Shown: positions 5,440 to 52,020, counted from the first letter of the stretch. The stretch is 64,000 bases of DNA from Eledone cirrhosa (GCA_964016885.1 OZ024743.1:247070001-247134000); one strand, 5' to 3'. Made by a program: numbers and translations. The notes: generated by a model not told the origin, from the letters alone.

Positions 5440-8400
5440 AATAGTAATTTATTTTATAACCTTCTCGCTCGTTTTCTAAAATAACCTTCCTGCTCCCTCC
5501 TATTCTTCACCCCCCCCCCCCCCCCTATATATCGTATACGCGCCTGCTGGTTCTCTCTCTCAATCCCTTCCTTCTCTCTCCAAATATAAAATAAACCTGT
5601 TGCAAGGTACGAAACTCAGAATTTGTCAATCCCTTATTATTGGCTAGACCGCTCGCTCCTCTGTGAAATGTAATGTACAATGCTATTTTTTTCTCTTCTC
5701 TCCATCTTCCCCCGGTCCATTCAGCTATCCGTATCATCGTCCAGAATCCAATCATTGCTTTTTTTTTTGCTTTTTTTTTTTTCAATGCTATTCTATAATT
5801 CTGTCTGATTGTTCAAAATAATCTTCTTGTATTTTAAAATCCCATAATTCTTCTCTTATTACTGTTATATGCTTGTTCAATTATACCCAAAATTCGAGGA
5901 TTTTATTTAAACCTTCTCGCTACCTACCCCATACCCCTCCCAGCCGCCCCCACTCACCACCATTATTACTTGGACCAATCATAAGTCAGTGGCCTATGCT
6001 ATCACTTCTTAAGTTCAGACCTGGTTGCCTTTCGATATGATGGATGGAATACGGAATTCTGGAGAGTCTGAAAAATCTGAACACTCAGTGACAATGCCAA
6101 AGATAAAGACAAATTCACCTCATGCTGCCGGACGAGAATGCAAGGACTCCTCCTCTTTATTTCGGCCGCGGATGGCCAACATAACCCCCATCTCCCTCAC
6201 CCCTCCCTGCGCCCCACCGTTCCCACCCACCAAATGCAATCCAAAACTTCAGAGTTGGTACCATGAATGTAGGCACCTTAAAAGGTCGCTCTAACGAGGT
6301 TGTAGAAATTCTTGAACGTAAGGAGGTTGATGTTTGCTGTATCCAAGAGACCAGGTGGAGGGGTGGGTCTGCTAGATTCATTGTGGGTAAAAAACGATGC
6401 TATAAGCTTTTCTGGGTGGGAAATGACAATGGGCTGGGTGGAGTAGGAATCATGCTAGCAGAAAAATGGGCAGATAAGATAATAGACGTAAATAGAGTGA
6501 ACGACAGAATAATTAAAATAAGACTTGTCCTAAATAGAACTACTTTGACAATAATATCTGCGTACGCTCCCCAATCCGGACTGCCTGGCGTTATAAAAGA
6601 CAGATTCTATGAGTCATTAATGCTCACTACCTCCCAAATAACCGACAGTGACTACATAATTATTGCTGGTGACCTAAATGGTCACGTTGGACAACATTGT
6701 GATGGCTATGACGGAATCCATGGAGGCTATGGGTTTGGTACTAGAAATGAGGAAGGCTCCAGAATCCTGGAATTCTGTGACGCAAATAACCTAACTATCT
6801 GTAACACTAACTTCAAAAAACGAGACAATCACTTGATCACCTATAGATGAGGGGAACACGCCAGTCAGATAGATTATATCCTTACCAGAAGACGTGACAG
6901 AGTGTCTGTTGTAAACACTAAATCCCTCCCCCATGAAGAATGCACCTCCCAACATAGACTCATAGTTAGCGACCTAATAGTCAGGACAAGACGTACTCGA
7001 CAACAGAGGAGGACTATCCTCAGGAGAAAAATATGGAAGCTAAAGGACCCCACAGCCAGTAATAAATTTAAAAGCATATTACTTGATGCTTTTGACAGTA
7101 AGGAAGAGCAATTAGAATCGTACAATATAGAGGAACAGTGGGAATTCCTGAAAGCTAACCTGCTGAAGGCGACAGATGAAATCTGTGGCTGGAGCAGACC
7201 TATAGGCAGGAGGAGAGTAACGTGGTGGTGGAACAGTAAGGTGGGGGAGTCAATCAAGACCAAAAAGCAGGCTTGGAAAGTATGGCGGGATGGGGAAGTA
7301 GAGAAGACTATCAAGTGGCCAGGAGGGAAGCTAGGAGACAAGTGTACTTTGCAAGAAGGGAAGCAGAAGAAAGAAAGTTCAAGCATGTTCTACAACACGA
7401 GGACCAAAAACGTGAGGTGTTCAGGATTGCTAGGTAATGTGTCAAGGAAAACCGTGATATTGTCGGGGAGAAGTGTGTCCTTAATGATGATGGTGTACTT
7501 GCCATCACTGACGCTGATAAGAAGGTAGCTTGGAAGTGTCACTACGAAAGGCTACAAAATGAGGAGAATAAATGAGAGAAAGAGAGTCTCCCCCACATCG
7601 ATCCAATAGAGGGACCAGCAGTGCAAGTTGAAGGTAGTATAATAAGTAAGGCAATCAAAGATATGAAGACGGGCAATGCAGCTGGGCCTTCGGAAATAGT
7701 TGCTGAAATGCTGAAAGCATCTGGAACGGTGGGACACACTATGGTCACCCGGATAGTAGACCAAGTCATACAGAATGGGGTTGTACTGAAGGACTGGCGT
7801 AGCAGCATCATCATTAACTGCTACAAGGGTAAAGGAGATGCCCTAGATAGGGGAAACTATAGAGGCATTAAATTAATTGACCAGGTCATGAAGGTCACAG
7901 AAAAAGTAATAGCGCAACTAATCAGAGAGCGAATTGATCTGGATGAAATGCAGTTCGGGTTTGTGTCAGGTAAAAGTACCACAGACGCTCTTTTCATTGT
8001 ACGACAACTACAGGAGAAGTACTTAGCTAAAAGTAAACTCCTATACTTAGCTTTTGTTGACTTGGAGAAAGCCTTTGACAGAGTCCCACGCCCCATTATC
8101 TGGTGGGCTCTCAGAAAACTAGGTGTTGATGAATGGCTTGTGAGAGCTATACAAGCCATGTATAAAGAAACAGTCAGTAAGGTTAGAAATAACAACGAAT
8201 ATAGTGAAGAGTTTAGCGTACAAGTTTATGTTCATCAGGGCTTCGTCCTTAGCCCCCTCCTATTTATTATTGCCCTTCAGGCTATAACAGAGGAGTTCAA
8301 GACCGGCTGCCCATGGGAACTCCTATACATTAATGATCTAACGCTTATAGCTGAATCAATGGCTGAACTAGAGAAGAAATTCCAAACATGGAAGCATGGC

Positions 8401-9657
8401 CTAGAATCAAAAGGCCTTAAAATTAACCTGTCTAAGACCAAAGTTCTAGTATGTAGGAAGGAAAATAGGGCACTGGTCCCATCTGGGAAATGGCCATGCT
8501 CAGTGTGTAGGAAAGGAGTAGGCAGTAACTCCATTTTATGTCCCAAATGCAAAGTATGGGTGCATAAAAGATGTAGTGGGATCACAGGTAAGCTAACTAA
8601 GAATATAGATTTTATATGTGGCCGGCACTCAGGTGCAATAAGTAGCAGCAAGTGCCCACAGAATACTAGCTCAATCCATTGCACAGATGGTTCTATAGAA
8701 ATAGTGGACACCTTCTGTTACTTGGGTGACAAAATCAGCAGTGGTGGAGGGTGCTCTGAAAGTACAGTAGCTAGAGTCAGAACAGGATGGAAAAAGTTCA
8801 GAGAGCTTATACCACTATTGGCCGCCAAAGGTTTCTCTCTAAAAATGAAAGGCAGGCTGTATGATGCCTGCATACGAACAGCAATGTTACATGGCAGTGA
8901 GACTTGGGCATAGTGTGCAGAGGATCTACGCAGACTGGAGAAGAACGAAGCTTGCATGCTCCGTTGGATGTGTAATAGTAATATACGTGAATGGCAAAGC
9001 ATAAATGAACTAAGTGATAAATTAGGAATAAGAGGGATCAGATGCTGTTTACTTGAGAGAAGACTACGTTGGTATGGTCACATGATGCGCATGAAAGACG
9101 ACAGCTGTATAAAAAAAATGCAGGGTGATCAAAATAGATGGTAGCCACGGAGTAGGCAGATCCAGAAAAACCTGGGACGACTTGATAAATTCCGACCTCA
9201 CACACTTACACCTCTCCAAGACAATGTCACTGGACCGAGATCTTTGGCGTTACGCAGTAATACAGAAGACCCGCCTTGCCTAAGTGCAAAGCGAAACCTA
9301 CTGTCAGTAGGCACCTCTTCCTAAAATACACCCCCTTCCGACTACCCCCCCCCCCATCCATCCACCCCACCCCCCTTCCGATGTAAAGTTATGTTGGTAC
9401 CACAACATCCAGTCCTAAATAAATGAGGTCGTGTAGATGTCACGACAAAAAAACACACAGTCCACGCTGTAATGTGGGCATGTAGGTAACACGGTAAAAA
9501 CATCCCAGTCCACACTGTAAACGTGGTTGGTGTTAAGAAGGGTATCCAGCCGTAGAAAACCCGCCAGGCAGTCCTATACGAGCAAGACAACCAATCTTGC
9601 CTCAAGTGGGAAAATTCCCGTCCAAACCTATGCTAGTGTGGAAGATGGACGTTAAAC

Positions 9658-9688
<31 letters not shown>
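5440..9688 (+). mobile_element. Near full-length RTE-clade LINE, degenerate
   Basis: APE endonuclease (NVGTL, CIQETRW, SAYAPQ, AGDLNGHVG), RT (FVDLEKAFDRV, HQGFVLSPLLF), RTE-type C-terminus (RRLRWYGH) and a (GAT)n tail at 9658-9687. 5' boundary approximate; no TSD found. Confidence 0.9.
6263..9280 (+). pseudogene. RTE endonuclease/reverse transcriptase ORF with stops and frameshifts
   Basis: ORF pieces 6263-6850, 6902-7528, 7621-8913 and 8956-9144; catalytic YADD degenerated to YIND. Confidence 0.9.
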
Positions 9689-13163: not shown

Positions 13164-13292
13164 AATTTGAAACAATATGGATCAAATGTAATAGATTCAA
13201 CACCACTAACTACAGATATTAACAATCTATCATTGGAAAATCTCTTAATACAACCTGCACCTTCTGTTAACAAAATACCTGTTACCAATTGT
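13164..13292 (+). CDS. Gene 1 exon 5 (NLKQYG...IPVTNC)
   Basis: ttttcctttcag|AAT...TGT|gtaagt; 43 codons, phase 0-0. Confidence 0.8.
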
Positions 13293-38564: not shown

Positions 38565-39690
<1,126 letters not shown>

Positions 39691-39900
39691 TCTTTACTAG
39701 ATGTAACATAGTATCTGTCTTGCAGTATTGCCAATTTGGCGCGAAACGCTCTAGATTTGACGCGTTTTAGCAACGCTTAACAAATGAACTTTAGATTTGG
39801 CGCAGTCACAGTATTTTAACACTAGCAATTTTTATCGCATTTTGGAGTATTTTGTAGTTTCTCGTCATTGGAGATAAAAGTAATTTATATTTTGTTTATA

Positions 39901-39947
<47 letters not shown>

Positions 39948-40196
39948 TTTCTTTATTAACCACAAGGGTTTACATAAAGTAGACATTAAGGACAGTGCAG
40001 GACAATACAGGACGGTACAAATGGGCATTTCTGCGTGTAAAAAACAAAAACAGAGGATGTAACAAAAAAATAACAATGAAAAATTCCCCAATAGGGGGGA
40101 GACTTCGGAGGGACATTTGTGGAGAAAGCCCAGTAAAAGGCCACAGTGACCCTGACCACCAAGGCAAGTGCCCTCTCCCAGTTTTCCATCTTTAAT

Positions 40197-43100
40197 TTAC
40201 AGATATATACTCAGAGTAGGCCCATTCACTCGGGCCATTCTTGCTTCTCTCACCCATCTTTCAACAAAATGCTGGGAAGAGAGTACTTCCCTCTCTACTC
40301 TGATCTTCCTTTTCAAATGAAATTTGAAAAAGTCAATCAGAGCATCACCGAAGAGGTAAGTGCTCGTCTTCAGCCCTTTCAAACGTGTCCACCATACTAT
40401 CTCTTTCGCCATGGCCACCAGACAGATAAAAACTTCCTGCCCTTCCCGGCTAAAGGAGGAGGGCGGGGCAATCCTCACGATGGACTCAGATGATAGCCGG
40501 ATCCGTCCTACACGCGACAGCAGGTGTTCGACATAAACCCACAAGTCAGCAATTTTCGGACACTGGACGAGTGCGTGCAGGACGGTTTCGTCGCCCTGCG
40601 CGCATCTCGCACATGCCCGGCTGACGGCACCTCCATGCCTGTAGAGTTTATCCCGAACTGGCAAGGCTCTTCGGTAGCACTACCAGGCCAGAGATTTCTG
40701 GAAGTTGTCCATAGGCCCTGGCCCGAAAGTTCTTCCGAAGAGATTGGCTAGTTGATTTTCGTCGACGCCTAGAGTTTCACCAAGTACGTCGTCACTCATC
40801 CCCTCCACTAATCCTCTATAGAACGCCGAGGTGGAGTTTCCACCGATCACATTGCCTGATTGGTCGAGGGCTGTGAGCGCCTGAAGACATTCCAGTCTCC
40901 AGGCGCTCCCTCTCGGTCTTCGCTTGACCCAGGACTGCAGCTCCGTCAAGGAAACGAGCTGGGGAAATACGTGTCTAGCAAACGACGACCACACCTGATC
41001 ACCGTCGAGGAAGAGGTGGAGATGTCGTAGCCTGAGCGCGTGCCTGCGCATCATCAGCCACGGCATGCCCAGCCCTCCACGTAGCGGGTGTTGACAACAG
41101 ATGGACTGCCTGACCATCGGAGCGCGTCCCTTCCACAAAAAGCGAAAGAGCACCGCTTCGTATTCTCTTAGTGTAGTGCCGATCGCCTCGATGTGTTTGG
41201 CGTTCGACACCACTACGGTGACATCGTCCGCATATGCTGACACAGATCTTCCGCATCCTAGTTCGCGCGGGACGCCCCTCAACGTCTCCAGTTTGTGCAG
41301 TAATGGCTCGAGAGTCAATACGTACAAGAGGGACGAGAGGGGACATCCTTGGCGGACCGAGCGCATGATGTTGAACGGTTCCGAAAGGTGACCGTTCACT
41401 CTCCCCACAGAGCAGATGTCGCTGTGCATGGCAGCGATCCAGCCTCTGAAGACGGGCCCAAAGCCAGCCGCCCTCAGGACTGCCGCTAGGTAACGATAGT
41501 CGACCCTATCGAAAGCTTTCGACTGATCTAAATTGATCAAGGACCCACCCGTGCCAGGTTCCCTAGCTACCCTCTCTACGATGTATCGCATGAGGTGGAG
41601 GTTGTCGTGGATGGATCTGTCTGGAATGGCGCATGTCTGCGCCCCTCCCACCAGACCACCAACGACAAGCGCCAACCTCTTTGCTAGCACCTTGGCCAAA
41701 ATCTTGAACTCTGTGTTTAGCAGAGTTATGGGCCTGAAATTATCTATGTTATCCCCCTTGTTCGGATCCTTTCTCAGCAGTGCCACCGTTCCTAGGCTCA
41801 CAGAACTGGGAATTCTTCCGTTCTGTTGCCAGTTGCAGTAGACGTCCGCCAAGAGGCCTCCGAACAAGTCTGGCATCTGTACGTAAAGTTCATAGGGCAG
41901 ACCATCCAAACCAGGCGATTTACCCCTTGTGCAGCCAGTCATTGCCTCCCTTACTTCAGCGGCTGTTATCGGCTTTTCGCAACACTCCGCCTCAGTGGCC
42001 GAGAGCCGCGGCAGTCCGTCGAGGTAGACACTAAAGTCCATCCCTCGACCCGGCCCACCGCTGCCCCCGAACAGCTGAGTGAAGTGTCGCTGAAAAGCTT
42101 CACACATTTGCCCGGGATCGAGTAGCATGCGCCCGTCGTGGTCCACCAAAGACCGGATCGTGGCTTTGTTGCAACGACGCGCTCCGCCACTCGGGCCCAT
42201 TGAACGGCTTTCGTCCCCTCGTGTCTGAGAGCACGCACCCTAGCTCTGACAACGCAGCCTTCGTGCTTTGCATTGAAGAATTGGTCAAGGGCCAATTTCG
42301 CCGCAAGCACGTCAGTCGCAATGCCTTTGCTAAGCGCCTCGTCTAATTTTCTAACTAGTTCTCCCTCTGCTCTATTTTTCTCTATTGCTAAAGCCTTACT
42401 AAACCTAATGGATTCTATTCTAATCGCTCTTTTCAGAGCAAACCACCACTTGTTGTTGACGATGGCCCCCGTTAACGCCCGCTTAACTAGTTCGCTAATC
42501 CGGTCTCTGTAGGCCTTGCGCGCTGGTAAGGACGCGTTTAGCTTCCAGTAGCCGGGTCCTCGTCTATGAAGCCTATCTAAATCAAGCACACAGATCACGA
42601 ATTTGTGGTCCGTGTAGCTGACTATCTTGAATTGTGAACAGCCTATGCTAGACCTATCTATTTCCCTACAAAATACTCTATCTAGATATGATCTGGATGA
42701 CCCTATGCGATTTGTCCAAGTCCACATTGGCACATTCGGGAAATCCAATCGGTACCTGTCAGACAGTTCAAAACGCCTGAGCAGGTTGGTGAGGCTCTTG
42801 CACCCTCCACCCCTATCCGCTAATCCCACACAGTCCCAGCGTGCATCTAAGATCCCGTTCCAGTCGCCCACTAACACTAAAGAGCGGGACGTTCCAAGAA
42901 AGGTCTCCAGACGCCGGAAGAAATCAGGCCGCCCTGCTCCTGTCGGGGCATAGACGGCCACTAGCCTGAAAGCTTGCCCGTCTCCGCTGGTCACGTCCAG
43001 CACCACCAACTTACCCTCTGGGTCCAGGAAGATGGCCCGTATGGCGAGATCCAAACCTCTCCGAAAAAGCACAGCAACTCCTCCCCCCGATCCAGGACGG

Positions 43101-43285
43101 CTGGGAGATGCGTACACATCGTAGCCGCCGAAGATCGGTGCGAAGGCCCGTGCTTCGGAGATTCTGGTCTCGCTGATGGCCACTACATCTATGTTTAGTG
43201 ACCTGAGGTCGTTGAGCAGGTGACCCTGCTTCCATGACGACCCCAAGCCACGCGCATTTATGCTGCCTATTCTGAGTGAGGTCAT
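40197..43285 (-). pseudogene. Tx1-like ORF2 endonuclease/reverse transcriptase, disrupted
   Basis: SINARGL, ISET, GDWN, SYLDR, TDH (APE); LDQSKAFDRV, RQGCPLS, YADD (RT). Frameshift near 42190, stop near 40680, internal deletion at 41150/41151. Confidence 0.9.
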
Positions 43286-43320
43286 GTTTAAAATAGAGTG
43301 GAAAAGATGGGAAAGACCAC

Positions 43321-45319
43321 TTACCGTACTTTTCGTAGAGGAGGGATGGAAAAACCATCCCTTTTCACTTGATCGTCTGGTGAAGGGACCGTTGAATCGT
43401 CCCTTCGGCTGGTCGTCGGCTCTTCTATGAGTATGTCCGAATATACTCTTCGATTGAGAGTCCCTCCTAGGTCTCTGAAATCACCAACTGCGTTGGGGAA
43501 TTTCGTTTTAATGTTTGTGTGTTGTTTCTGTGCTATTTTTAGCAGTCTTATGTTAGTTGGCGTTTTGATTGGTGCTGGTATTATGTAGTCGTGTTGTGAA
43601 ATGTCTGTGTGTTCAATTATGTAAGTCATTAGTTTCTTGTGTGTATTTATTGCCGTGCATTTGTTTTTCTGGGGGTGGGGTGTGGTTCTGCTATTTTCTT
43701 GTCGTTGTTGCTGGGTGTGTGTGTTTTGTTGTTGTGTTTGCGATGTTGGTGCTTGTGGTGGTGGTGTTGAAGGTGCTGTTGTTGTTGGCGGTGGAGTTGT
43801 CGCCGGTGGTGATGGTGGTGCTAGTGTGGGTGGTGATGGTGTTGGTGGTGTTGCTGCTGTGAGTCTCTTTGCAGTAGCCTTTACCCTTTTTTCATTTCTT
43901 TCCTCCCTTTTCGAAGGCGACGATGCGCTGCTTCTGCGTTTGTGCCTTCTTACGACCTTTTGCCATCCCTCTCCCACCTCACACTCCATGTCTGATTCTG
44001 TGAGGTCGGGGAGGGGTACCAGCTCCACTCTTTCACTTGTTGTTGTTGGTGATGTTTGCACTGGAGTCTCTGTTGCAGCTGCATTTGGTATTGCTGTTGT
44101 TGTTGTTGTTAATACTTCCACTGCTGCTGCTGTTTTTGATTTCCGTGGCGTGGGTATGGGTGCCACGGACCTATCGTTCCTGGTTACCGCTTGTCCTGTT
44201 GCTGGTAGCCGTGGAGCCGGTTTCGGAAGGAGTGGGGTTTTCTCCTTTCTCAGGGTCTTCTCGTTGCAGAAGGCCCTGAGGTGAGTCTTCGATCCACAGC
44301 GAAAGCATTTCAGGCGTTTGCCCTCAACACTTATGGGCAGTTGAGTGCCGTTATCGAAGTCTATCACATCCGGGATAGCTTCGATGCACTCCTGGTTGGT
44401 TTGGATTAACATCTCAATGGAGGTGCCGCCCCAATCTTCTCTTACTTTTTTCTGTACTTGCAGTACAGTTGTTTTGTCCTCGATTCCGACGAGGACAGAC
44501 GCGTCCAGCCAAGAAGGGGCCATCCCGGGGGGGGACGTGGGTCAGTTTGACCCTCACAATTGTTTGCCCGCAGTAGGAGGGCACCAACACCATTTCCTCG
44601 CTCCTTAGGGTCACTAAGGATTGAGCCTTTGCCTCCTGGGGTGTGGCAAAAAGTACGTCTGCGGTGGCATATTTCTTGCCTCGGGTGATGTGCGTTTTCC
44701 GCTGCCACACAGACCCCAAGGCTTTTTGTATTTGAGCCTCTGTTGCTCTTTCAACCCTACGGGATTTTGTACTTACTGTACGGTACGTGACCGTACAGTG
44801 CTGTTGGGTTTCGAAAAATTTTTCGGCTGCCTTGCAGATTGCTCGGTGTCCAGTTTTTGTCACCATCTTCTTCGCTTCCTCTAATTCCTCATTTGTTATG
44901 AGGATGGTTTCCAGGTTCTTTGCGATACCTGCAAACGAGATTGGTTTTTCTTTGCTGCTGTTGTTGTTGTTGTTGTTGTCGTCAGAGCTGCTGTTACTTT
45001 TGTTGTTGTTGCAGGTACTACGACTACTGCCGCCGCCGCTGTTGCTGTGGTTGTTGTTGTTGTTGCTGCTGCTAATGCTATTGTTGTTTATGCTGCTGCT
45101 GATGCTGTTGCGGCTGCTACTGTTGTTTTCCTTGTCACTGTTGCTGTTATTACGGCTGCTACTGCTATTATTCCTGACGTCAGACGAATGAAATGGGTTT
45201 TCGTATTTCCCGCACACCTGTTTCATCGTTGTCGTCGTCGTGGAGAAATCTTGCACGCTTTGCACGAGATTTTTCTTTTCTGTCGTCGCTTGCGAAAGAG
45301 AAGGGAGGGAGAGAGACAC
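43321..45319 (-). pseudogene. Tx1-like ORF1 (gag-like, CFRCGSKTHLRAFC knuckle, N/S-rich N-terminus, P/T-rich linker) with one frameshift
   Basis: ORFs 44414-45319 and 43321-44523 overlap at a G/C homopolymer near 44524-44535. Confidence 0.8.
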
Positions 45320-45647
45320 ATTTAAAGAAGGGGGGAGAGAGACAATCTTCTCTCTGCTGTAGTGACGATTGAGGAAGAAGAAGACGGAATGAGTGGGAGT
45401 GACCTATGAAAATTCTTTTTCGTAGCCATGTTGTTGTTTTTTTGTTTAAAATAAATATTGGGCACAAAACCCCAATAAGCGGTTATTTAACCCCGAAGGG
45501 CCAAATAACGGGCAGAAAGACTCCTCTCACGAGGAGGAGGGTGTTTTTGTCTACAATTTGGTTAAAGTTTTAAACAATTTACAATTGTTATAGCAGTCAA
45601 AATTTACAATACCTTACAGAGCCGAGCCTCCGTCAACCATAGCATTC

Positions 45648-47543
45648 AATAATAATAATGATAATGGTTTCTTTATTGGCCACAAGGGCTAACATGAAGA
45701 AAAACATTACAGACGGCACAGGACGATACAAAGTGGGTTTTGGCCGTGTAAAAATGTTATAACAAGACAGAAACGTGTAAAAATAAATTAAAAAATTTTC
45801 AAACAACAAAAATTTCCCCAAAAGGGGGAAACCTCCGAGGGTCACTCGTGGCGAAAACCACACAAAAGACCACGGCCACCCTGACCACCAGGGCAAGCGC
45901 CCTCTCTCAGTTTTCCCACTCCTCAGTCTACAGGCGCATACTCGCCACTTTCACCCACCTTTCAACAAACTTACTAGAAGATAGCACTTGCCTTTCCACC
46001 CTGATTTTCCTCTTCAAGTGAAATTTGAAAAAGTCAATTAGGGATTGGCCGGATAGGAAAGTGTCCGTCTTCAATCCTTTCAACCTTGTCCCCCACACAA
46101 TCTCTTTCAGCATGGCCACCAGGCAGATGAAAATTGCCTGCCCTTCCTCCTCTGGTGAGGCTATCTGCACAATGGACTCAGTCGATAATCGGATCCGTCC
46201 CACACGCGACAGCAACTGTTCGACATAGCTCCATAAGTCAGCAATCCTCGGGCACTGAAACGAGTGCGTGCAGGACGGTTTCGTCGCTCTGCACGCATCT
46301 CGGACAGGCTCGGCTGACAGCACCTCCGTGCCTGTAGAGCTTATCCCGAACCGGCAACGCTCCTCGGTAGCACTGCCAGGCCAGGGCTTTCTGGAAGTTG
46401 TCCATAGGCCCCGGGCTGAAAGTTCTCTTGAAGAGAGCGAACAGCTGATCGTCCTCGACGTCCAGGGTCTCCCCGAGAACGTCGTCGCTCTTCCCCTCCA
46501 CTAACCCTCTATAGCACGCCGAGGTGGATGTTCCACCGATATCAGTGCCCATCTGGTAGAGGGCGGTGAGCGCTTGGAGACATTCCAGCTTCCAAGCGCT
46601 ATCCCTCGGTCCTTTCCTGATCCAGAACTGCAGCTCCGTCAAGGAGACGAGCTGGGGAAAAGTGTGTCTGGCAAACGGCGACCACACCTGTTCACCGTCA
46701 AAGAAACACCAGAGATCTCGCAGCCTCAGCGCATGTTTGCACATCATCAGCCACGGCATGCCCAGTCCTCCACACAACGGGTGCTGACAGCAGATGGATC
46801 ATCTGACCATGGGAGCACGTCCCTTCCACAAAAAGCGGAAGAGAAGGCGCTCCATTTTGGTCAGAGTTGGGCGGGGGCAAGGTACGACGGTCAGGCGGTA
46901 GCAGATGACGGACGCGATGTACGCATTCGCCACCTCCACCGACCTTTCAGACACAGCCACCTCTCGGCCCATTTCTGGGTAAGAGAAGCCACCCTGCTCG
47001 TCACCTCGCTCCAGTTTTTCTCCATCTGGAGGTCTGGACCGAACCAGACCCCGAGCAATTTAACCGTTCCTTCCGTCCAGCGCCCCACTACGCTGTCGGA
47101 CGGCATGGACTTGCCTCTCCAGTGCCGAGTTGCAAGCCCACCGACTTTTCCTGATTTATCTTTGCTCCTCTCACCGCTTCGTATTCCTTGAGAGCGGTGC
47201 TGAGCATCTGGGCGTGTTTGGTGCTCGACACCACCGCGGTGACGTCGTTGGCGTAAGCCGACACGGATCTCCCGCATCCCAGTTCGCGAGGGAGTCCCCT
47301 CATGGTCTCCAATTTGTTCAGTAATGGCTCGAGGGCCAGTACGTACAAGAGGGACGAGAGAGGACAACCCTGGCGGACGAAGCGCATGATGCTGAACGGC
47401 TGCAGCAGATGACCATTCAGCCTCACAATCGAGCAGATGTCACTGTGCTTCGCAGCGATCCAGCTCCTAAAAACGGGCCCGAAGCCGGCCGCCTCGAGGA
47501 CCGCAGCCAGGTACCGATGGGCGACCGTATCAAATGCTTTAGA
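45648..47543 (-). mobile_element. Tx1/L1-clade copy 2, 5'-truncated, diverged from copy 1
   Basis: From KAFD through the C-terminal zinc motif; ends AATAAAGAAACC(ATT)n directly against the 5' end of copy 1. Confidence 0.9.
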
Positions 47544-47775
47544 TTATAATGATTTCTAGTATAGGCACAAGGCCAGTAATTTTTTTTTTTGGGGGGGGGG
47601 GGGGGAGTCGATTAAATCGACACCAGTACGTTACTGGTACTTTATTTTATCAACCCCGTAAGGATGAAAGGCAAAGTTAACCTCGGCAGGATTTGAACTC
47701 AGACCGTAAATGGCCGTAACTCTATGCTAAAAAGCATGGCGTCCGACCCTCTACCGATACTGCCAATCCACCGCC

Positions 47776-47777
<2 letters not shown>
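47544..47777 (-). mobile_element. Complete tRNA-derived SINE between Tx1 copies 2 and 3
   Basis: Sense head GGCGGTGGATTGGCAG...GAGTTCAAATCC; 3' end ggccttgtgcctatactagaaatcattat. Confidence 0.9.
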
Positions 47778-47830
<53 letters not shown>

Positions 47831-48680
47831 TTTCTTTATTAACTACAAGGGTTATCATCAAGAAAAACATTAGGGCTGCACAGGACGAAAACAGTGTATG
47901 TTGGTGTGGCGGGTTTGTGTGTAATCAAATTTAACAATGTTAAAAAAGAAAGATAACAATAAAAATCAAAACGGGATTCCTCAAAAGGGAGGAGACGTTC
48001 GAGGGTCACTCGTGGGAAAAACCCCATAAAATCACGATGCTCTGATCTCTAGAGTAAGTGCCCTGTCCCTGTATTACTCCTCCAATTTACAGGCTCACAT
48101 TCCCAGCAGGTCCATTCACTCGGGCCATGCTCACCTCTCTCGCCTACCTTTCAACAAATTGCTTTGATGGCAGCACTTCACTCTCCACCCTGATTTTTCT
48201 CTTCAAGCACGTCCACCATATAACATATTTTGCCATGACCACAAGACAGATAAAAACAGCCTGATCTTCCTGACTAAGGGAAGGTGGTGGGAAATCTTCA
48301 CAATGGACTCGGCTAATATATGGATTCATCTTACACGCGACAGCAGGTGTTTGACATAAACCCACAAGTCAGAAATGCCTGGACACTGGACAATTGCGTG
48401 CAAGACGGTTTCGTCGCCCAGTGCGCATCTCGGACAGGACCAGTTGACGGCATTTCCATGCCCGTAGAGTTTATTCCGAACTGGCAAAGCATCTCGATAG
48501 CACTGTAAGGCCAGGGATTTCTGAAAATTATCCATGGGCCCTGGACCGAAAGTCCTCTCGAAAAGAGTGGCTAGTTGATTTTCGTTGATGTCTATAGTTT
48601 CCCAAAGAACGTCGTCGCTTTCATCTGCCACTAACCCCGTATAGAACGCCAAGTTGGAGGTTCCACTGATCATACTGCCT
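47778..48680 (-). mobile_element. Tx1/L1-clade copy 3, short degraded 3' fragment
   Basis: GPMDNFQKSLALQCYRDALPVR...CPRC...ETVLHAIVQC; ends AATAAAGAAATC(ATT)n. Confidence 0.88.
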
Positions 48681-49189
48681 CTGTGGCTCTCTCTCTACTT
48701 TTCTCGTTTTCAACCCAATAATACGATATGACACTGCGATCTATCGTGCTTTGAATTGTTTCGACAGAAGTCTTAAGGCTGACAATATGGCCATCTTCAG
48801 AAAAGCTTATTTTCCTGAAAGTTGACTTGATAGCACTAGCAAAAAAAGCTTTGATAGTGCTATTAACTGTTTTGTTCGTTGGTTCGTTGTTGTCGTCGTT
48901 GTTGCTGTTATTCTTGTTGTTTTCACTGATATTGTAGCTGCTGTTATTGTGTTTGCTGTTGGTTTCTTCGTGCTTCTTGTTTTTATTTTCAGGTGATCTT
49001 ATTTATCACTGTTTTCATTGTTGCTGTTTCTATTATTGTCTTTGTTGTCATTGTTGTTGTTGGTATTACTATTAAGCAATATCATTCAAAATTATATTAT
49101 TTTTCATTTTCAAATTCACCTTCATTATACAGACGCTGTCACCTTTCTTCAAATCAAGCGTTGACAACGTCTCCCTCTCTCTATTTTAT

Positions 49190-52020
49190 CGCCCTGGGTA
49201 CATTTCGGACAGGCTAGGCAGATGGCACTTCCATGCCTGTAGAGGTTATCTCGAACTGGAAAAGCTCCCCGGTAGCACTGCTAAACCAGAGATTTACTGA
49301 TGTTATCCATAGGCCCTGGACAGAAAGTCCTGCAGAAAAGATTAGCTAGTTGATTTTCATCGACGCCCAGAATCTCCCCAAGAACATCATCGTTTTTATC
49401 CGCCACTAACCTTATATAGAACGCAAAGGTGGAGTTTCCACCGATTGACTGAGGACTGTGGGCGCTTGAAGATATCCTAATTTCCAAGCGCTCCCTCTCG
49501 GACTTAACTGACTAAGGAATACAGCTCTGTCAATGAGACAAGTTGTACAAATACGTGTGTAGCGGATAAGTGGTATTCTTGATGGGTGTTTGTTGAAAAG
49601 AACAATGCCATGATTGAGTTGTTAACAACGTTTATTTTGTAATAACAATATTCACTTTGAACATCAAGTAATAATATTTATGACATGAATTATCCCTACA
49701 TTGATTACTAGCTACTACGAGCTAGCGTAAATGCATGTTTCACAGAAAACGATATAGTAAAAGTTGTGTTGTATCTTACGGATACAATATGACAGGAAGA
49801 ATAGGGTGAGCGTAGAATGTAAATAATATGAACTTACTATGTGTGTGTGTGTGCCTATTCTTAGAATACATTATTGTCGTAGTGGTAGTGGTCAATCTGT
49901 CAGGCAGGCATGGTTGGCTGTCTGGCTGTGTCTGTGGTCGAGAAGGTGACAACCAGTGAGGGCCAGGAGAGAGATAGAGTGAAAAGTCTGCTACATCGTG
50001 AACCTTAACACGGACAGCTTGCTCCGGTCTCTCTGACTTTTATATTCCTTAACTCCTTGTATTTATAATAGTGCTATAGTTATAAGGGTGTGTATATGAG
50101 GTTGATTTATGATCAGCCATGTGGATATTTTCTCCCAAGAAGCTGTGGTCACAGGTCAACCTGCAACTCAGCGCCTAGAAAGGCAAGTCCATGTCCAACA
50201 GCATCGCCGGGCGCTGGATGGACCAGTTAAATTTCTCTGGGTCTTGTTCGGTCCTGCCCTCCAACTGGACAAAAGCTGGGACGAAGTAATGACCAGGGTG
50301 GCCACTCTCACCCAGACATGGGCTGAGAGAAAACTATTCCTGAAAGGTCGGACAGAGGTTGCGAACACACACATCGTGCCATCTACTGCCAGCTGACCGC
50401 TGTGTCTTGTGATCGACGTCTGACCGCACTGGAGCGTTTATTATCGTTGTCTTTGACAAGACAATGGTGGGAACTTTCAACGATAGATGGTCCCAGAGGC
50501 GAGAAATCTCAGATTCGGTTTCGAATCTTCGCCAGTAAAATATAGGAGTATTCCATTATACGTGCCCAGCAAACGGCGACCACACTTGTTCGCCGTCAAG
50601 GTAAATCTGGAGATGACGTAGTTCGAGCACATGTTCACGCATCATCAGCCTCGACATGCTCAGTCATCCACGCAGCGGGTGTTGGCAGCAAATGAACCGC
50701 CTGACCAGTGAAACCTGTTCCTTCCACAAAAAGCGAAAGAGTAAACGCTCCAGTGCAGTCAGACGTCGATCACAAGACACAGCGGTCAGCTGGCAGTAGA
50801 TGGCACGATGTGTGTGTTCGCAACCTCTGTCCGACCTTTCAGGAATAGTTTTCTCTCAGCCCATGTCTGGGTGAGAGTGGCCACCCTGGTCATTACTTCT
50901 TCCCAGCTTTTGTCCAGTTGGAGGGCAGGACCGAACAAGACCCCTAGAAATTTAATTGGTCCATCCAGCGCCCGGCGACGCTGTTGAACATGGACTTGCC
51001 TTTCTAGGCGCTGAGTTGCAGGTCCACCGACTTGATTAATTTTTTCTCCTGTTATCACTTCATACATTTGCTGCTTGACACCCCAACGGTGACATCGTCG
51101 GCGTATGTTGACACAGATATTCCTACCGCCTAGTTCACGCGGGATGCCCCTCAATGTCTCCAATTTGTGTATTAGTGGCTTGAAAGTCAATAAATACAAT
51201 AGAGATAATAGAGGACAACCTTGGCGGACCGAACACATGGTGTTGATCAATTCCGTGAGATGGCCGGTCACTCTGACCTCAGAGCAGATATCGCTTTGCC
51301 TTGCAGCGATACATCCTCTAAAATTCTGGTCTCGCTGATGGCCATCACATCTATGATCAGTGACCTGAGGTCGTTGAGCAGGTGGCCCTACGTCCATGAC
51401 GACCCCAGGCCACATGCATTTATACTGCCTATTCTGAGTAAGGCCATATTAGATAAAGAGTATGGGTAAAGGGTTACCTATTCGTGTGGAAGAAGGGATA
51501 GTAATTCCTTTCCCTAGCCAGTTGTAGGCAGACACCTCCACAAGAATGTCAATGTATATCCTTTTAGATATCGTTCCTCGGAAATCCCCAATTGCACTAG
51601 GGAAAATTTCTTTAGGGTGTGATTATTTTTATGTTTGCGGGCAGTGCGATATTTTGGGTGTGGGGTGGGGTGGGTGGGGTGGGGTGGGGGATAATCTATT
51701 TTTCCTTCTGTAATGTTGATGTGCTGTATGTGGCGAATTACATTTCTGTTGTCTGTATTTACATTTCTGTATGAAACGTGTGAAATTATTGTTTACGTTT
51801 GTTGTTGTTTGTGCGGGTACTAGATGGATTGTAGATGTTGGTGTCTGTGGTGTTGATGGTGGTGAGCTTTGTGTAGGTGTTGGCATTTGTTGCCTCACCG
51901 TTTTGGCATTTTTCTTTTCCCCACTTTCGTCCTCTCATTTCTTTTCTTTTCTTGGGGGTGGGGTGGACAAGACGGAGTTTTCTTTTTTTTTTTTTTGTTC
52001 TTGTGGCTGCAAGTTATATT
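49190..52020 (-). mobile_element. Tx1/L1-clade copy 4, rearranged (ORF1 tail, EN start fused to mid-RT, LTR-like insertion)
   Basis: NAIGDFR..ISKRIY (ORF1 end, near 51560); RIGSINACGL...ISETRI joined to FRGCIAA...RQGCPL near 51320; GPMDNI near 49310. Confidence 0.8.
49558..50560 (-). mobile_element. Probable solo LTR inserted in Tx1 copy 4
   Basis: The Tx1 sequence is interrupted and resumes across duplicated (ata)cgtg. Ends tgtagcgga...tccattata form an imperfect TG..CA-type inverted pair. TATA-like motif (about 50040) and AATAAA (about 49631) on the minus strand. Confidence 0.5.

What the first reader, a model, noticed from the sequence alone, without database searches (positions are those of the whole stretch)
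39901..48680. Tail-into-tail chain: Tx1-like LINEs and a SINE stacked head-to-tail through their (ATT)n tails
Seen on the minus strand: copy 3 -> (ATT)n -> SINE -> short att tail -> 5'-truncated copy 2 -> (ATT)n -> full-length copy 1 -> (ATT)n. All share one orientation with essentially no spacer at the junctions (47777/8, 47543/4, 45647/8). The copies are clearly diverged, so this is not a tandem duplication. Integrity rises from copy 3 to copy 1, and a fourth rearranged copy lies further upstream (49190-52020). Established: many Tx1-clade elements are sequence-specific, some for microsatellites. Inference: this family targets (ATT/AAT)n and deposits a new (ATT)n with each insertion, so each copy creates the landing site for the next. 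That would give a self-renewing, polarised array, here antisense within a host intron.
Basis: partly seen in the sequence, partly recalled or inferred. Interest (0 to 1): 0.75.

Follow-up and report, generated by a model that had tools for sequence, protein, structure and literature searches.

The report
ATT-repeat-targeting LINE stack, unpolarised
Three unrelated-age copies of a jumping gene (a Tx1-like LINE) and one short passenger repeat sit head to tail, joined only by ATT repeats, likely because this family lands in ATT repeats and leaves ATT on both sides of each new copy, so stacks would grow at either end or in the middle rather than only at the tail.

Summary
The chain is real at the stated junctions: copy 3 - (ATT)17 - SINE - ATTAT - copy 2 - (ATT)6 - copy 1 - (ATT)15, all on the minus strand. 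The LINE copies are 77-83% alike, so this is no tandem duplication. ATT targeting holds genome-wide: 40 of 41 distinct full-length heads abut at least 4 perfect ATT units (chance 1.8e-4 per position), and neighbours are head-to-tail in 138 of 140 cases. (1) Age polarity holds for the LINEs here (83, 93, 98% to nearest relative) but not across stacks (37 downstream-younger, 45 upstream-younger of 115 scored). (2) The SINE's 'tail' is a target-site duplication starting at ATT, with no units added in 29 of 41. Full-length LINEs need longer tracts than truncated ones (5 of 51 rows), as for Drosophila melanogaster-type R1. No host exon was shown. This is a new member of the microsatellite-targeting Tx1 kind (Kibi, Koshi), with a target I did not find in print for Tx1. 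The scan had already noted this family on other DNA of this genome at least eight times.

The parts
39901..39945 (-). (ATT)15 tract 3' of copy 1; target remnant plus duplication
39946..45647 (-). Copy 1: Tx1-like LINE with both ends (starts GAATGC, ends GAAATC), youngest; 328-bp deletion at 41151/2, frameshifts, one stop
43321..45429 (-). Copy 1 ORF1 region, broken into frames; holds a CX2CX4HX4C knuckle read from the translation; no Pfam hit
40197..43285 (-). Copy 1 ORF2 region: APE endonuclease (PF03372, E 6e-15), reverse transcriptase (PF00078, E 5e-24), zf-RVT (PF13966, E 5e-7)
39959..39969 (-). Predicted 3' hairpin with CUUGU loop (ACC/GGT stem), followed by AATAAA; copy 2 has GCC/GGC, the SINE GGC/GCC
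   Evidence: single folds are not significant (z -0.2 to -1.5)
45648..45665 (-). Linker ATTATC(ATT)4 between copy 2 and copy 1
45666..47543 (-). Copy 2: 5'-truncated LINE of another subfamily (starts inside RT), about 93% to nearest relative
47544..47550 (-). Linker ATTAT(AA) between SINE and copy 2
47551..47777 (-). SINE, 227 bp, abundant family (about 2.2% of 600 kb sampled); shares the CTTGT hairpin and GAAA(T/C)C end with the LINE
47778..47828 (-). (ATT)17 tract between copy 3 and the SINE
47829..48679 (-). Copy 3: 851-bp 5'-truncated, oldest LINE copy (about 83% to nearest relative); 5' junction not ATT
49189..51461 (-). Older rearranged LINE pieces, one inverted, no tail; outside the ATT chain

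Best explanation
This is a stack of separate insertions of a Tx1-like LINE family and a SINE that it likely mobilises, all in one orientation and joined by ATT repeats, likely built because the element's endonuclease and RNA end prime at ATT and each insertion duplicates the target on both sides. Shown: the anatomy; ATT at the 5' side of nearly every full-length copy; 10-24 bp target duplications that begin at ATT for the SINE and some truncated LINEs; strict same-orientation stacking; no genome-wide age polarity. Inferred: first-strand nick and priming at ATT; a second nick about 17-19 bp downstream; SINE use of the LINE machinery through the shared 3' hairpin. Inferred with about even odds: the full-length RNA starts inside the upstream tract, so the end of its cDNA pairs with the ATT tract at the target; this would explain why full-length copies need about 4-6 units or more and never show a unique duplication, and with slippage why tracts lengthen. 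Because ATT is left on both sides, later elements can land downstream, upstream or between earlier ones. Here the likely order is copy 3, then copy 2 and the SINE (order open), then copy 1.
For: Full-length heads: 30 of 30 best 5'-end matches have an ATT tract upstream (includes this copy and one duplicated locus); 10 of 10 full-length copies picked by their 3' end; 40 of 41 distinct heads with 4 or more perfect units abutting, the last with a 3-nt break; 10 of 10 heads of a subfamily with a different 5' end have 7 or more; 116 of 118 genome-wide SINE-tail-to-head sites have an ATT linker, none a unique spacer next to a true head. Background 1.8e-4. SINE: ATTAT starts 8-24 nt upstream in 20 of 30 random heads against 4.8% background; of 87 SINEs with both ends, 41 have a duplication with a unique part (shuffled mean 1.3), 8 an all-ATT one, 38 none found; 35 of 41 begin with ATT; 29 of 41 add no unit. 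Truncated LINEs L002, L015, L244 show the same, and 9 other copies of the L015 host site hold a short tract of 3-4 units. Orientation 138 same, 2 opposite. Full-length LINEs pick SINEs that already lie in tracts: 13 of 19 against 1 of 45. Growth: a host site with (ATT)5 and (ATT)4 in 28 of 30 empty paralogs has 13 and 18 units around a LINE; genome-wide only 1 empty site reached 8 on the left and 3 reached 7-8 on the right. Precedent: R1 (PMC2718515, passages).
Against: No empty allele of this array was recovered. The RNA-leader step has no direct support: no RNA data, and 0 of 3 candidate junctions showed a duplication followed by a leader; none of 32 full-length copies with both flanks did. 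Many truncated copies have no ATT at the 5' junction (28 of 51 rows lack ATTAT within 26 nt, about 8 rows being false junctions), nor does copy 3. The age proxy is crude and the loci were picked with this window's copies. The 3' hairpin is short and its folds are not significant alone; the SINE could use another LINE. Some stacks hold recombinant copies, so insertion is not the only builder elsewhere.
Confidence: 0.75

Rival explanations
1. One reading: each copy writes a new (ATT)n tail from its RNA and the next copy lands in it, so arrays are polarised with the youngest at the 3' end.
For: The LINE ages in this array fit (83, 93, 98%). LINE-LINE pairs lean that way at a 2-point threshold (7 against 4 of 16). 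LINE 3' tracts are longer than SINE ones (median 5 against 2).
Against: 37 against 45 over 115 pairs; 4 against 4 for LINE-LINE at 3 points. Young LINEs lie upstream of older elements (L003, L018, L019, L028, L062). The SINE here is not older than copy 2 (95 against 93%). No unit added in 29 of 41 SINEs.
Confidence: 0.12
2. Pure endonuclease specificity: both nicks must fall in ATT for a full-length insertion, the RNA carries no ATT leader, and long tracts come from picking rare long targets plus later slippage.
For: Host SINEs already lie in long tracts (13 of 19 against 1 of 45). Linkers below 4 units are rare (2 of 118), near the 5-6 units that a 17-19 bp duplication would give. No leader-type junction confirmed.
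Against: It does not say why truncated copies made by the same enzyme accept ATTAT plus unique DNA. L066 has 19 units 5' but only 2 units 3', which an all-ATT duplication would not leave. The 13+18 units at a site that is 5+4 when empty.
Confidence: 0.35
3. The stack is a passive pile-up: elements land near each other in permissive DNA and recombination between ATT tracts joins or duplicates them.
For: A triple array on contig C1 holds a mosaic middle copy.
Against: The copies here are 77-83% alike and of different subfamilies; solitary full-length copies with unrelated flanks also abut ATT; target duplications start at ATT; 138 to 2 orientation bias.
Confidence: 0.05

Closest known systems
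Kibi, Koshi and crocodilian (TTCC)n/(TTTC)n Tx1 families (PMC4494074, passages read; the 2004 primary paper not read)
   Same: Tx1-like APE/RT LINE that inserts into a microsatellite.
   Different: Target is (ATT)n, not a pyrimidine repeat; invertebrate host; a SINE shares the target. Not placed on a tree with those families.
R1 of Drosophila (PMC2718515, passages read)
   Same: Tandem arrays separated by the target duplication; in melanogaster-type R1, full-length copies join precisely through upstream target sequence on the RNA while truncated copies carry duplications.
   Different: R1 clade, single rDNA site; its arrays are said to grow into the 5' duplication only. Here the target is a dispersed microsatellite and growth is on both sides.
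SINEU-3 / Tx1-Mar of crocodilians (PMC4494074, passages and section 14 read)
   Same: A SINE shares its target with a Tx1 LINE; tandem SINEs sandwich a target duplication and are read as sequential insertions.
   Different: Target is a Mariner element; snRNA-derived SINE head.
Dong (R4 clade) (PMC7998251, passages read)
   Same: Targets (TAA)n, the same repeat.
   Different: Restriction-like endonuclease, unrelated clade; such elements face the opposite way here.

Membership tests
L1/Tx1 group non-LTR retrotransposon | ORF2 with N-terminal APE endonuclease, RT and C-terminal zinc motif | tested here: met
   PF03372, PF00078, PF13966 in order; best solved relatives are human L1 ORF2 (E 1e-32) ahead of R2 (E 1e-19).
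L1/Tx1 group non-LTR retrotransposon | Separate ORF1, in Tx1 often with a CCHC knuckle (recalled) | tested here: met
   CX2CX4HX4C read in the ORF1 translation; no Pfam hit.
Tx1 clade | RT groups with named Tx1 families on a tree | tested here: inconclusive
   The only clade-named hit among the best 120 is an alligator 'transposon TX1 149 kDa protein' (42% identity, E 2e-53). No tree with Kibi, Koshi, Keno or Tx1L was built: their sequences came from no call.
Microsatellite-specific Tx1 families | More than 20% of flanks in one repeat type (criterion in PMC4494074) | tested here: met
   40 of 41 and 10 of 10 full-length heads; weaker for truncated copies (9 of 51 rows with 3 or more units).
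Microsatellite-specific Tx1 families | Endonuclease cuts the repeat in vitro | not testable with these tools
   Needs protein.
Kibi / Koshi proper | Target (TC)n or (TTC)n | tested here: not met
   Target is (ATT)n.
Stringent SINE-LINE pair | Shared 3' end sequence and stem-loop | tested here: inconclusive
   CTTGT loop with three differently paired stems and a GAAA(T/C)C end, only about 25 nt; the search patterns were seeded with these motifs.
Stringent SINE-LINE pair | Same insertion signature | tested here: met
   Duplications that start at ATT in the SINE and in truncated LINEs.
   37 against 45 of 115 pairs; stable over thresholds.

The most novel reading that the evidence does not exclude
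The full-length LINE RNA is bracketed by AUU repeats at both ends and pairs both ends with the target, so each full-length insertion writes extra ATT units on both sides. The family would then be a main source of the genome's long (ATT)n microsatellites and of landing sites shared with its SINE and with opposite-facing Dong-like LINEs: an RNA-pairing route to site choice in an L1-group element.
Probability: 0.35. Interest if true: 0.65.

Novelty: new member of a known kind. Interest (0 to 1): 0.45.

Why it matters
It adds (ATT)n to the targets of Tx1-like elements and gives a young, abundant system in which the second half of LINE integration can be read from junctions: full-length copies always abut ATT, while truncated copies and the SINE often show ordinary duplications. 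That contrast makes testable how cDNA ends are joined and how retrotransposons lengthen microsatellites. It also warns that head-to-tail order in such stacks is not a timeline.

Tried and rejected
Empty allele: laying four runs on 39560-49500 was swamped by other copies; the joints that skip about 5.7 kb join copy 1 to copy 2 at homologous places and are mapping artefacts. No RNA holder was listed. 5' ribozyme or known RNA: Rfam gave only six sub-threshold matches; the 5' UTR folds well (z -2.9) but I assign it no function. ARAGORN found no tRNA in the window, so a tRNA origin of the SINE head is untested. Leader-type junctions: 3 of the interrupted linkers were fetched and none confirmed. A second full-length LINE in the fixed host site was sought and not found. 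Empty-site search over 32 full-length copies gave one clean case; the other rows were self or family matches. Tandem duplication rejected for this array. Fourth copy rejected as a chain member. The PHD hit at 8497-8620 lies inside an RT reading frame, so it is not taken as a host exon. In one search about 8 of 51 'truncated' rows were internal positions and a few junctions (such as L017) were misplaced; corrected by eye, about 6-7 of 43 abut 4 or more units. In one search, 4 pairs with a third repeat were left out and 19 of 134 could not be scored. Literature: searches found no ATT-targeting Tx1 family; Repbase, Dfam and most subscription papers were not searchable, so it may be catalogued there.

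Full report
1. Observation. The window lies in a 3.0-Gb animal genome. That the host is a cephalopod is my recall of similar SINEs plus earlier notes, not a test. On the minus strand the order is copy 3 (48679-47829), (ATT)17, SINE (47777-47551), ATTAT(AA), copy 2 (47543-45666), ATTATC(ATT)4, copy 1 (45647-39946), (ATT)15. The three junctions are as stated. The LINE copies are 77-83% alike. Copy 1 has both ends but carries a 328-bp deletion, frameshifts and a stop. The upstream pieces (51461-49189) are older, partly inverted, tailless and outside the chain. No host exon was shown.

2. What the element is. ORF2 has APE endonuclease, RT and zf-RVT domains. Human L1 ORF2 is the closest solved protein. 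The only clade-named protein among the best 120 of 822 hits is an alligator Tx1 protein at 42%. I call it Tx1-like; no tree with named Tx1 families was possible. First-look candidates number 635 for the 3' end and 1724 for the 5' end, both lower bounds. None of the 20 long copies fetched has both ORFs whole.

3. Target. All 30 best matches to the 5' end have an ATT tract upstream, with unrelated DNA beyond (one is this copy, two share a flank). So do 10 of 10 full-length copies chosen by their 3' end. Of 41 distinct heads, 40 abut 4-30 perfect units; 10 of 10 heads of a subfamily with another 5' end abut 7-21. In 600 kb of evenly spaced genome a random position does so with frequency 1.8e-4. 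Genome-wide, 118 sites have one SINE tail motif within 40 nt of the head motif; 116 linkers are ATT or nearly so and 2 are chance matches; linkers of 2, 3, 4, 5, 6 units number 1, 1, 5, 8, 18, the other 83 are longer. Yet 36 of 81 random tails have 2 units and only 4 have 6 or more.

4. The 'tail' is mostly target. In the random sample ATTAT starts 8-24 nt before 20 of 30 SINE heads (background 4.8%), and none abuts 3 units. Of 87 SINEs with both ends, 41 show a duplication with a unique part (shuffled mean 1.3), 8 an all-ATT one, 38 none that my search found. Lengths are 10-24 bp, mostly 17-19; 35 of 41 start with ATT; the 3' side has the same number of units as the 5' side in 29, fewer in 8, more in 4. 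Truncated LINEs L002, L015 and L244 show the same signature. So the element ends at GAAA(T/C)C and the ATT after it is largely the duplicated target.

5. Full-length versus truncated. Only 5 of 51 truncated rows abut 4 or more units (about 6-7 of 43 after removing false junctions by eye), against 40 of 41 heads. SINEs that host a full-length LINE in their tail already lie in tracts (13 of 19 against 1 of 45), so longer tracts are chosen. Tracts also seem to grow: one host repeat has (ATT)5 and (ATT)4 in 28 of 30 empty paralogs and 6 units in 2 (chosen by likeness to an empty site), but 13 and 18 units around the LINE in L067 and 12 and 25 around an opposite-facing insertion in L334. Genome-wide patterns found only 4 empty sites with 7-8 units among at least 1525 candidates. 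These are two cases at one site. Melanogaster-type R1 shows the same split between full-length and truncated junctions, explained there by target sequence on the 5' end of the RNA (PMC2718515, passages). I infer the same here at about even odds: 0 of 3 candidate leader junctions were confirmed and no RNA was seen.

6. Stacking and polarity. Among 396 distinct tails, 138 have a same-orientation LINE or SINE directly downstream and 2 an opposite one (these loci are enriched for the family, and the opposite-facing Dong-like elements were not in that library). In the random sample 7 of 30 SINE heads follow a tail within 60 nt, background 0.3%. In this array identity to the nearest fetched relative is 83% (copy 3), 95% (SINE core), 93% (copy 2), 98% (copy 1); genome searches gave 82-83, 93, 95 and over 99%. 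The LINEs are thus ordered old to young; the SINE and copy 2 are not resolved. Across 115 scored pairs of 134, the downstream member looks younger in 37, the upstream in 45, and 33 tie (p 0.44); pairs with a LINE give 23 against 20, and no threshold shows a bias. The proxy compares different regions and the loci were picked with this window's copies, so a slight lean is not excluded. Clear counter-cases exist: copies at 99-100% lie upstream of SINEs at 86-90% (L003, L018) and LINEs at 94% (L019, L028). This is what a duplication that leaves ATT on both sides predicts. Recombination adds copies elsewhere: the middle member of a triple array is a mosaic.

7. SINE partner. LINE and SINE end in a CTTGT loop with stems ACC/GGT, GCC/GGC or GGC/GCC and then GAAA(T/C)C. 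The lead came from earlier notes; single folds are not significant. With the shared target signature this makes mobilisation by the LINE likely, not shown.

8. Known systems and novelty. Kibi (TC)n, Koshi (TTC)n and crocodilian (TTCC)n/(TTTC)n families are microsatellite-targeting Tx1 elements, and tandem SINEU-3 copies sandwich a duplication (PMC4494074: passages and section 14). R1 forms tandem arrays by inserting into the 5' duplication. Dong targets (TAA)n (PMC7998251, passages). Octopus repeat surveys list L1-Tx1 and Dong-R4 as active or expanded; I saw no target in what I read (PMC13282606, first third of the text; PMC8967140, passages). PMC4640811 and PMC3747384 (passages) gave background only. 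Searches found no ATT-targeting Tx1 family; supplements, Repbase and subscription papers were not seen. The scan noted the family before on other DNA of this genome; those notes are unreviewed and are not counted as support. Verdict: real, a new member of a known kind; targeting confirmed, polarity not; interest 0.45.

Noticed in passing
L334:470-3293; 3' flanks of L004, L011, L022, L023, L026, L030, L075, L076: A LINE with a C-terminal restriction-like endonuclease motif (Dong/R4-like by my reading of the translation) and an (AAT)n end faces the opposite way in the same tracts, often tail to tail with the Tx1-like LINE.
   Followed up: partly
L116, L123, L129, L130, L244: A subfamily shares ORF2 (about 95%) with copy 1 but has a different 5' UTR and diverged ORF1, switching just before ORF2; its heads also abut 7 or more ATT units.
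   Followed up: partly
L335-L336 (G000 C1, about 57.085-57.104 Mb): Three full-length copies in tandem share a variant 42-bp linker; the middle copy is a mosaic of the outer two and the first 500 bp are identical in all three.
   Followed up: partly
L014, L033, L036, L062, L065: A further short repeat ending ...ACAATATTTC plus ATT forms tandems and serves as a landing site; it lacks the CTTGT hairpin end.
   Followed up: no
window 7576-8913 (+): RT reading frame of another LINE with a PHD-like cysteine cluster (PF00628, E 5e-6) inside the frame right after the RT match; the element ends in (GAT)10 at 9658-9688.
   Followed up: partly
window 45425-45530 (-): Three hairpins, one with a UUCG loop, lie just before the ORF1 start; the 5' region folds better than 198 of 200 shuffles.
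   Followed up: no
L251-L280: A repeat with an RT-like frame on the other strand carries a fixed internal (ATT)5-TCTTCG-(ATT)4 site in about 1500 or more copies: a natural panel of empty targets.
   Followed up: partly
L007: A SINE cut in mid-body is fused directly to a truncated LINE with no ATT between: template switch or target deletion.
   Followed up: no
window 13164-13292 (+): Single weak exon candidate (splice signals, open frame, not matched by other loci).
   Followed up: no
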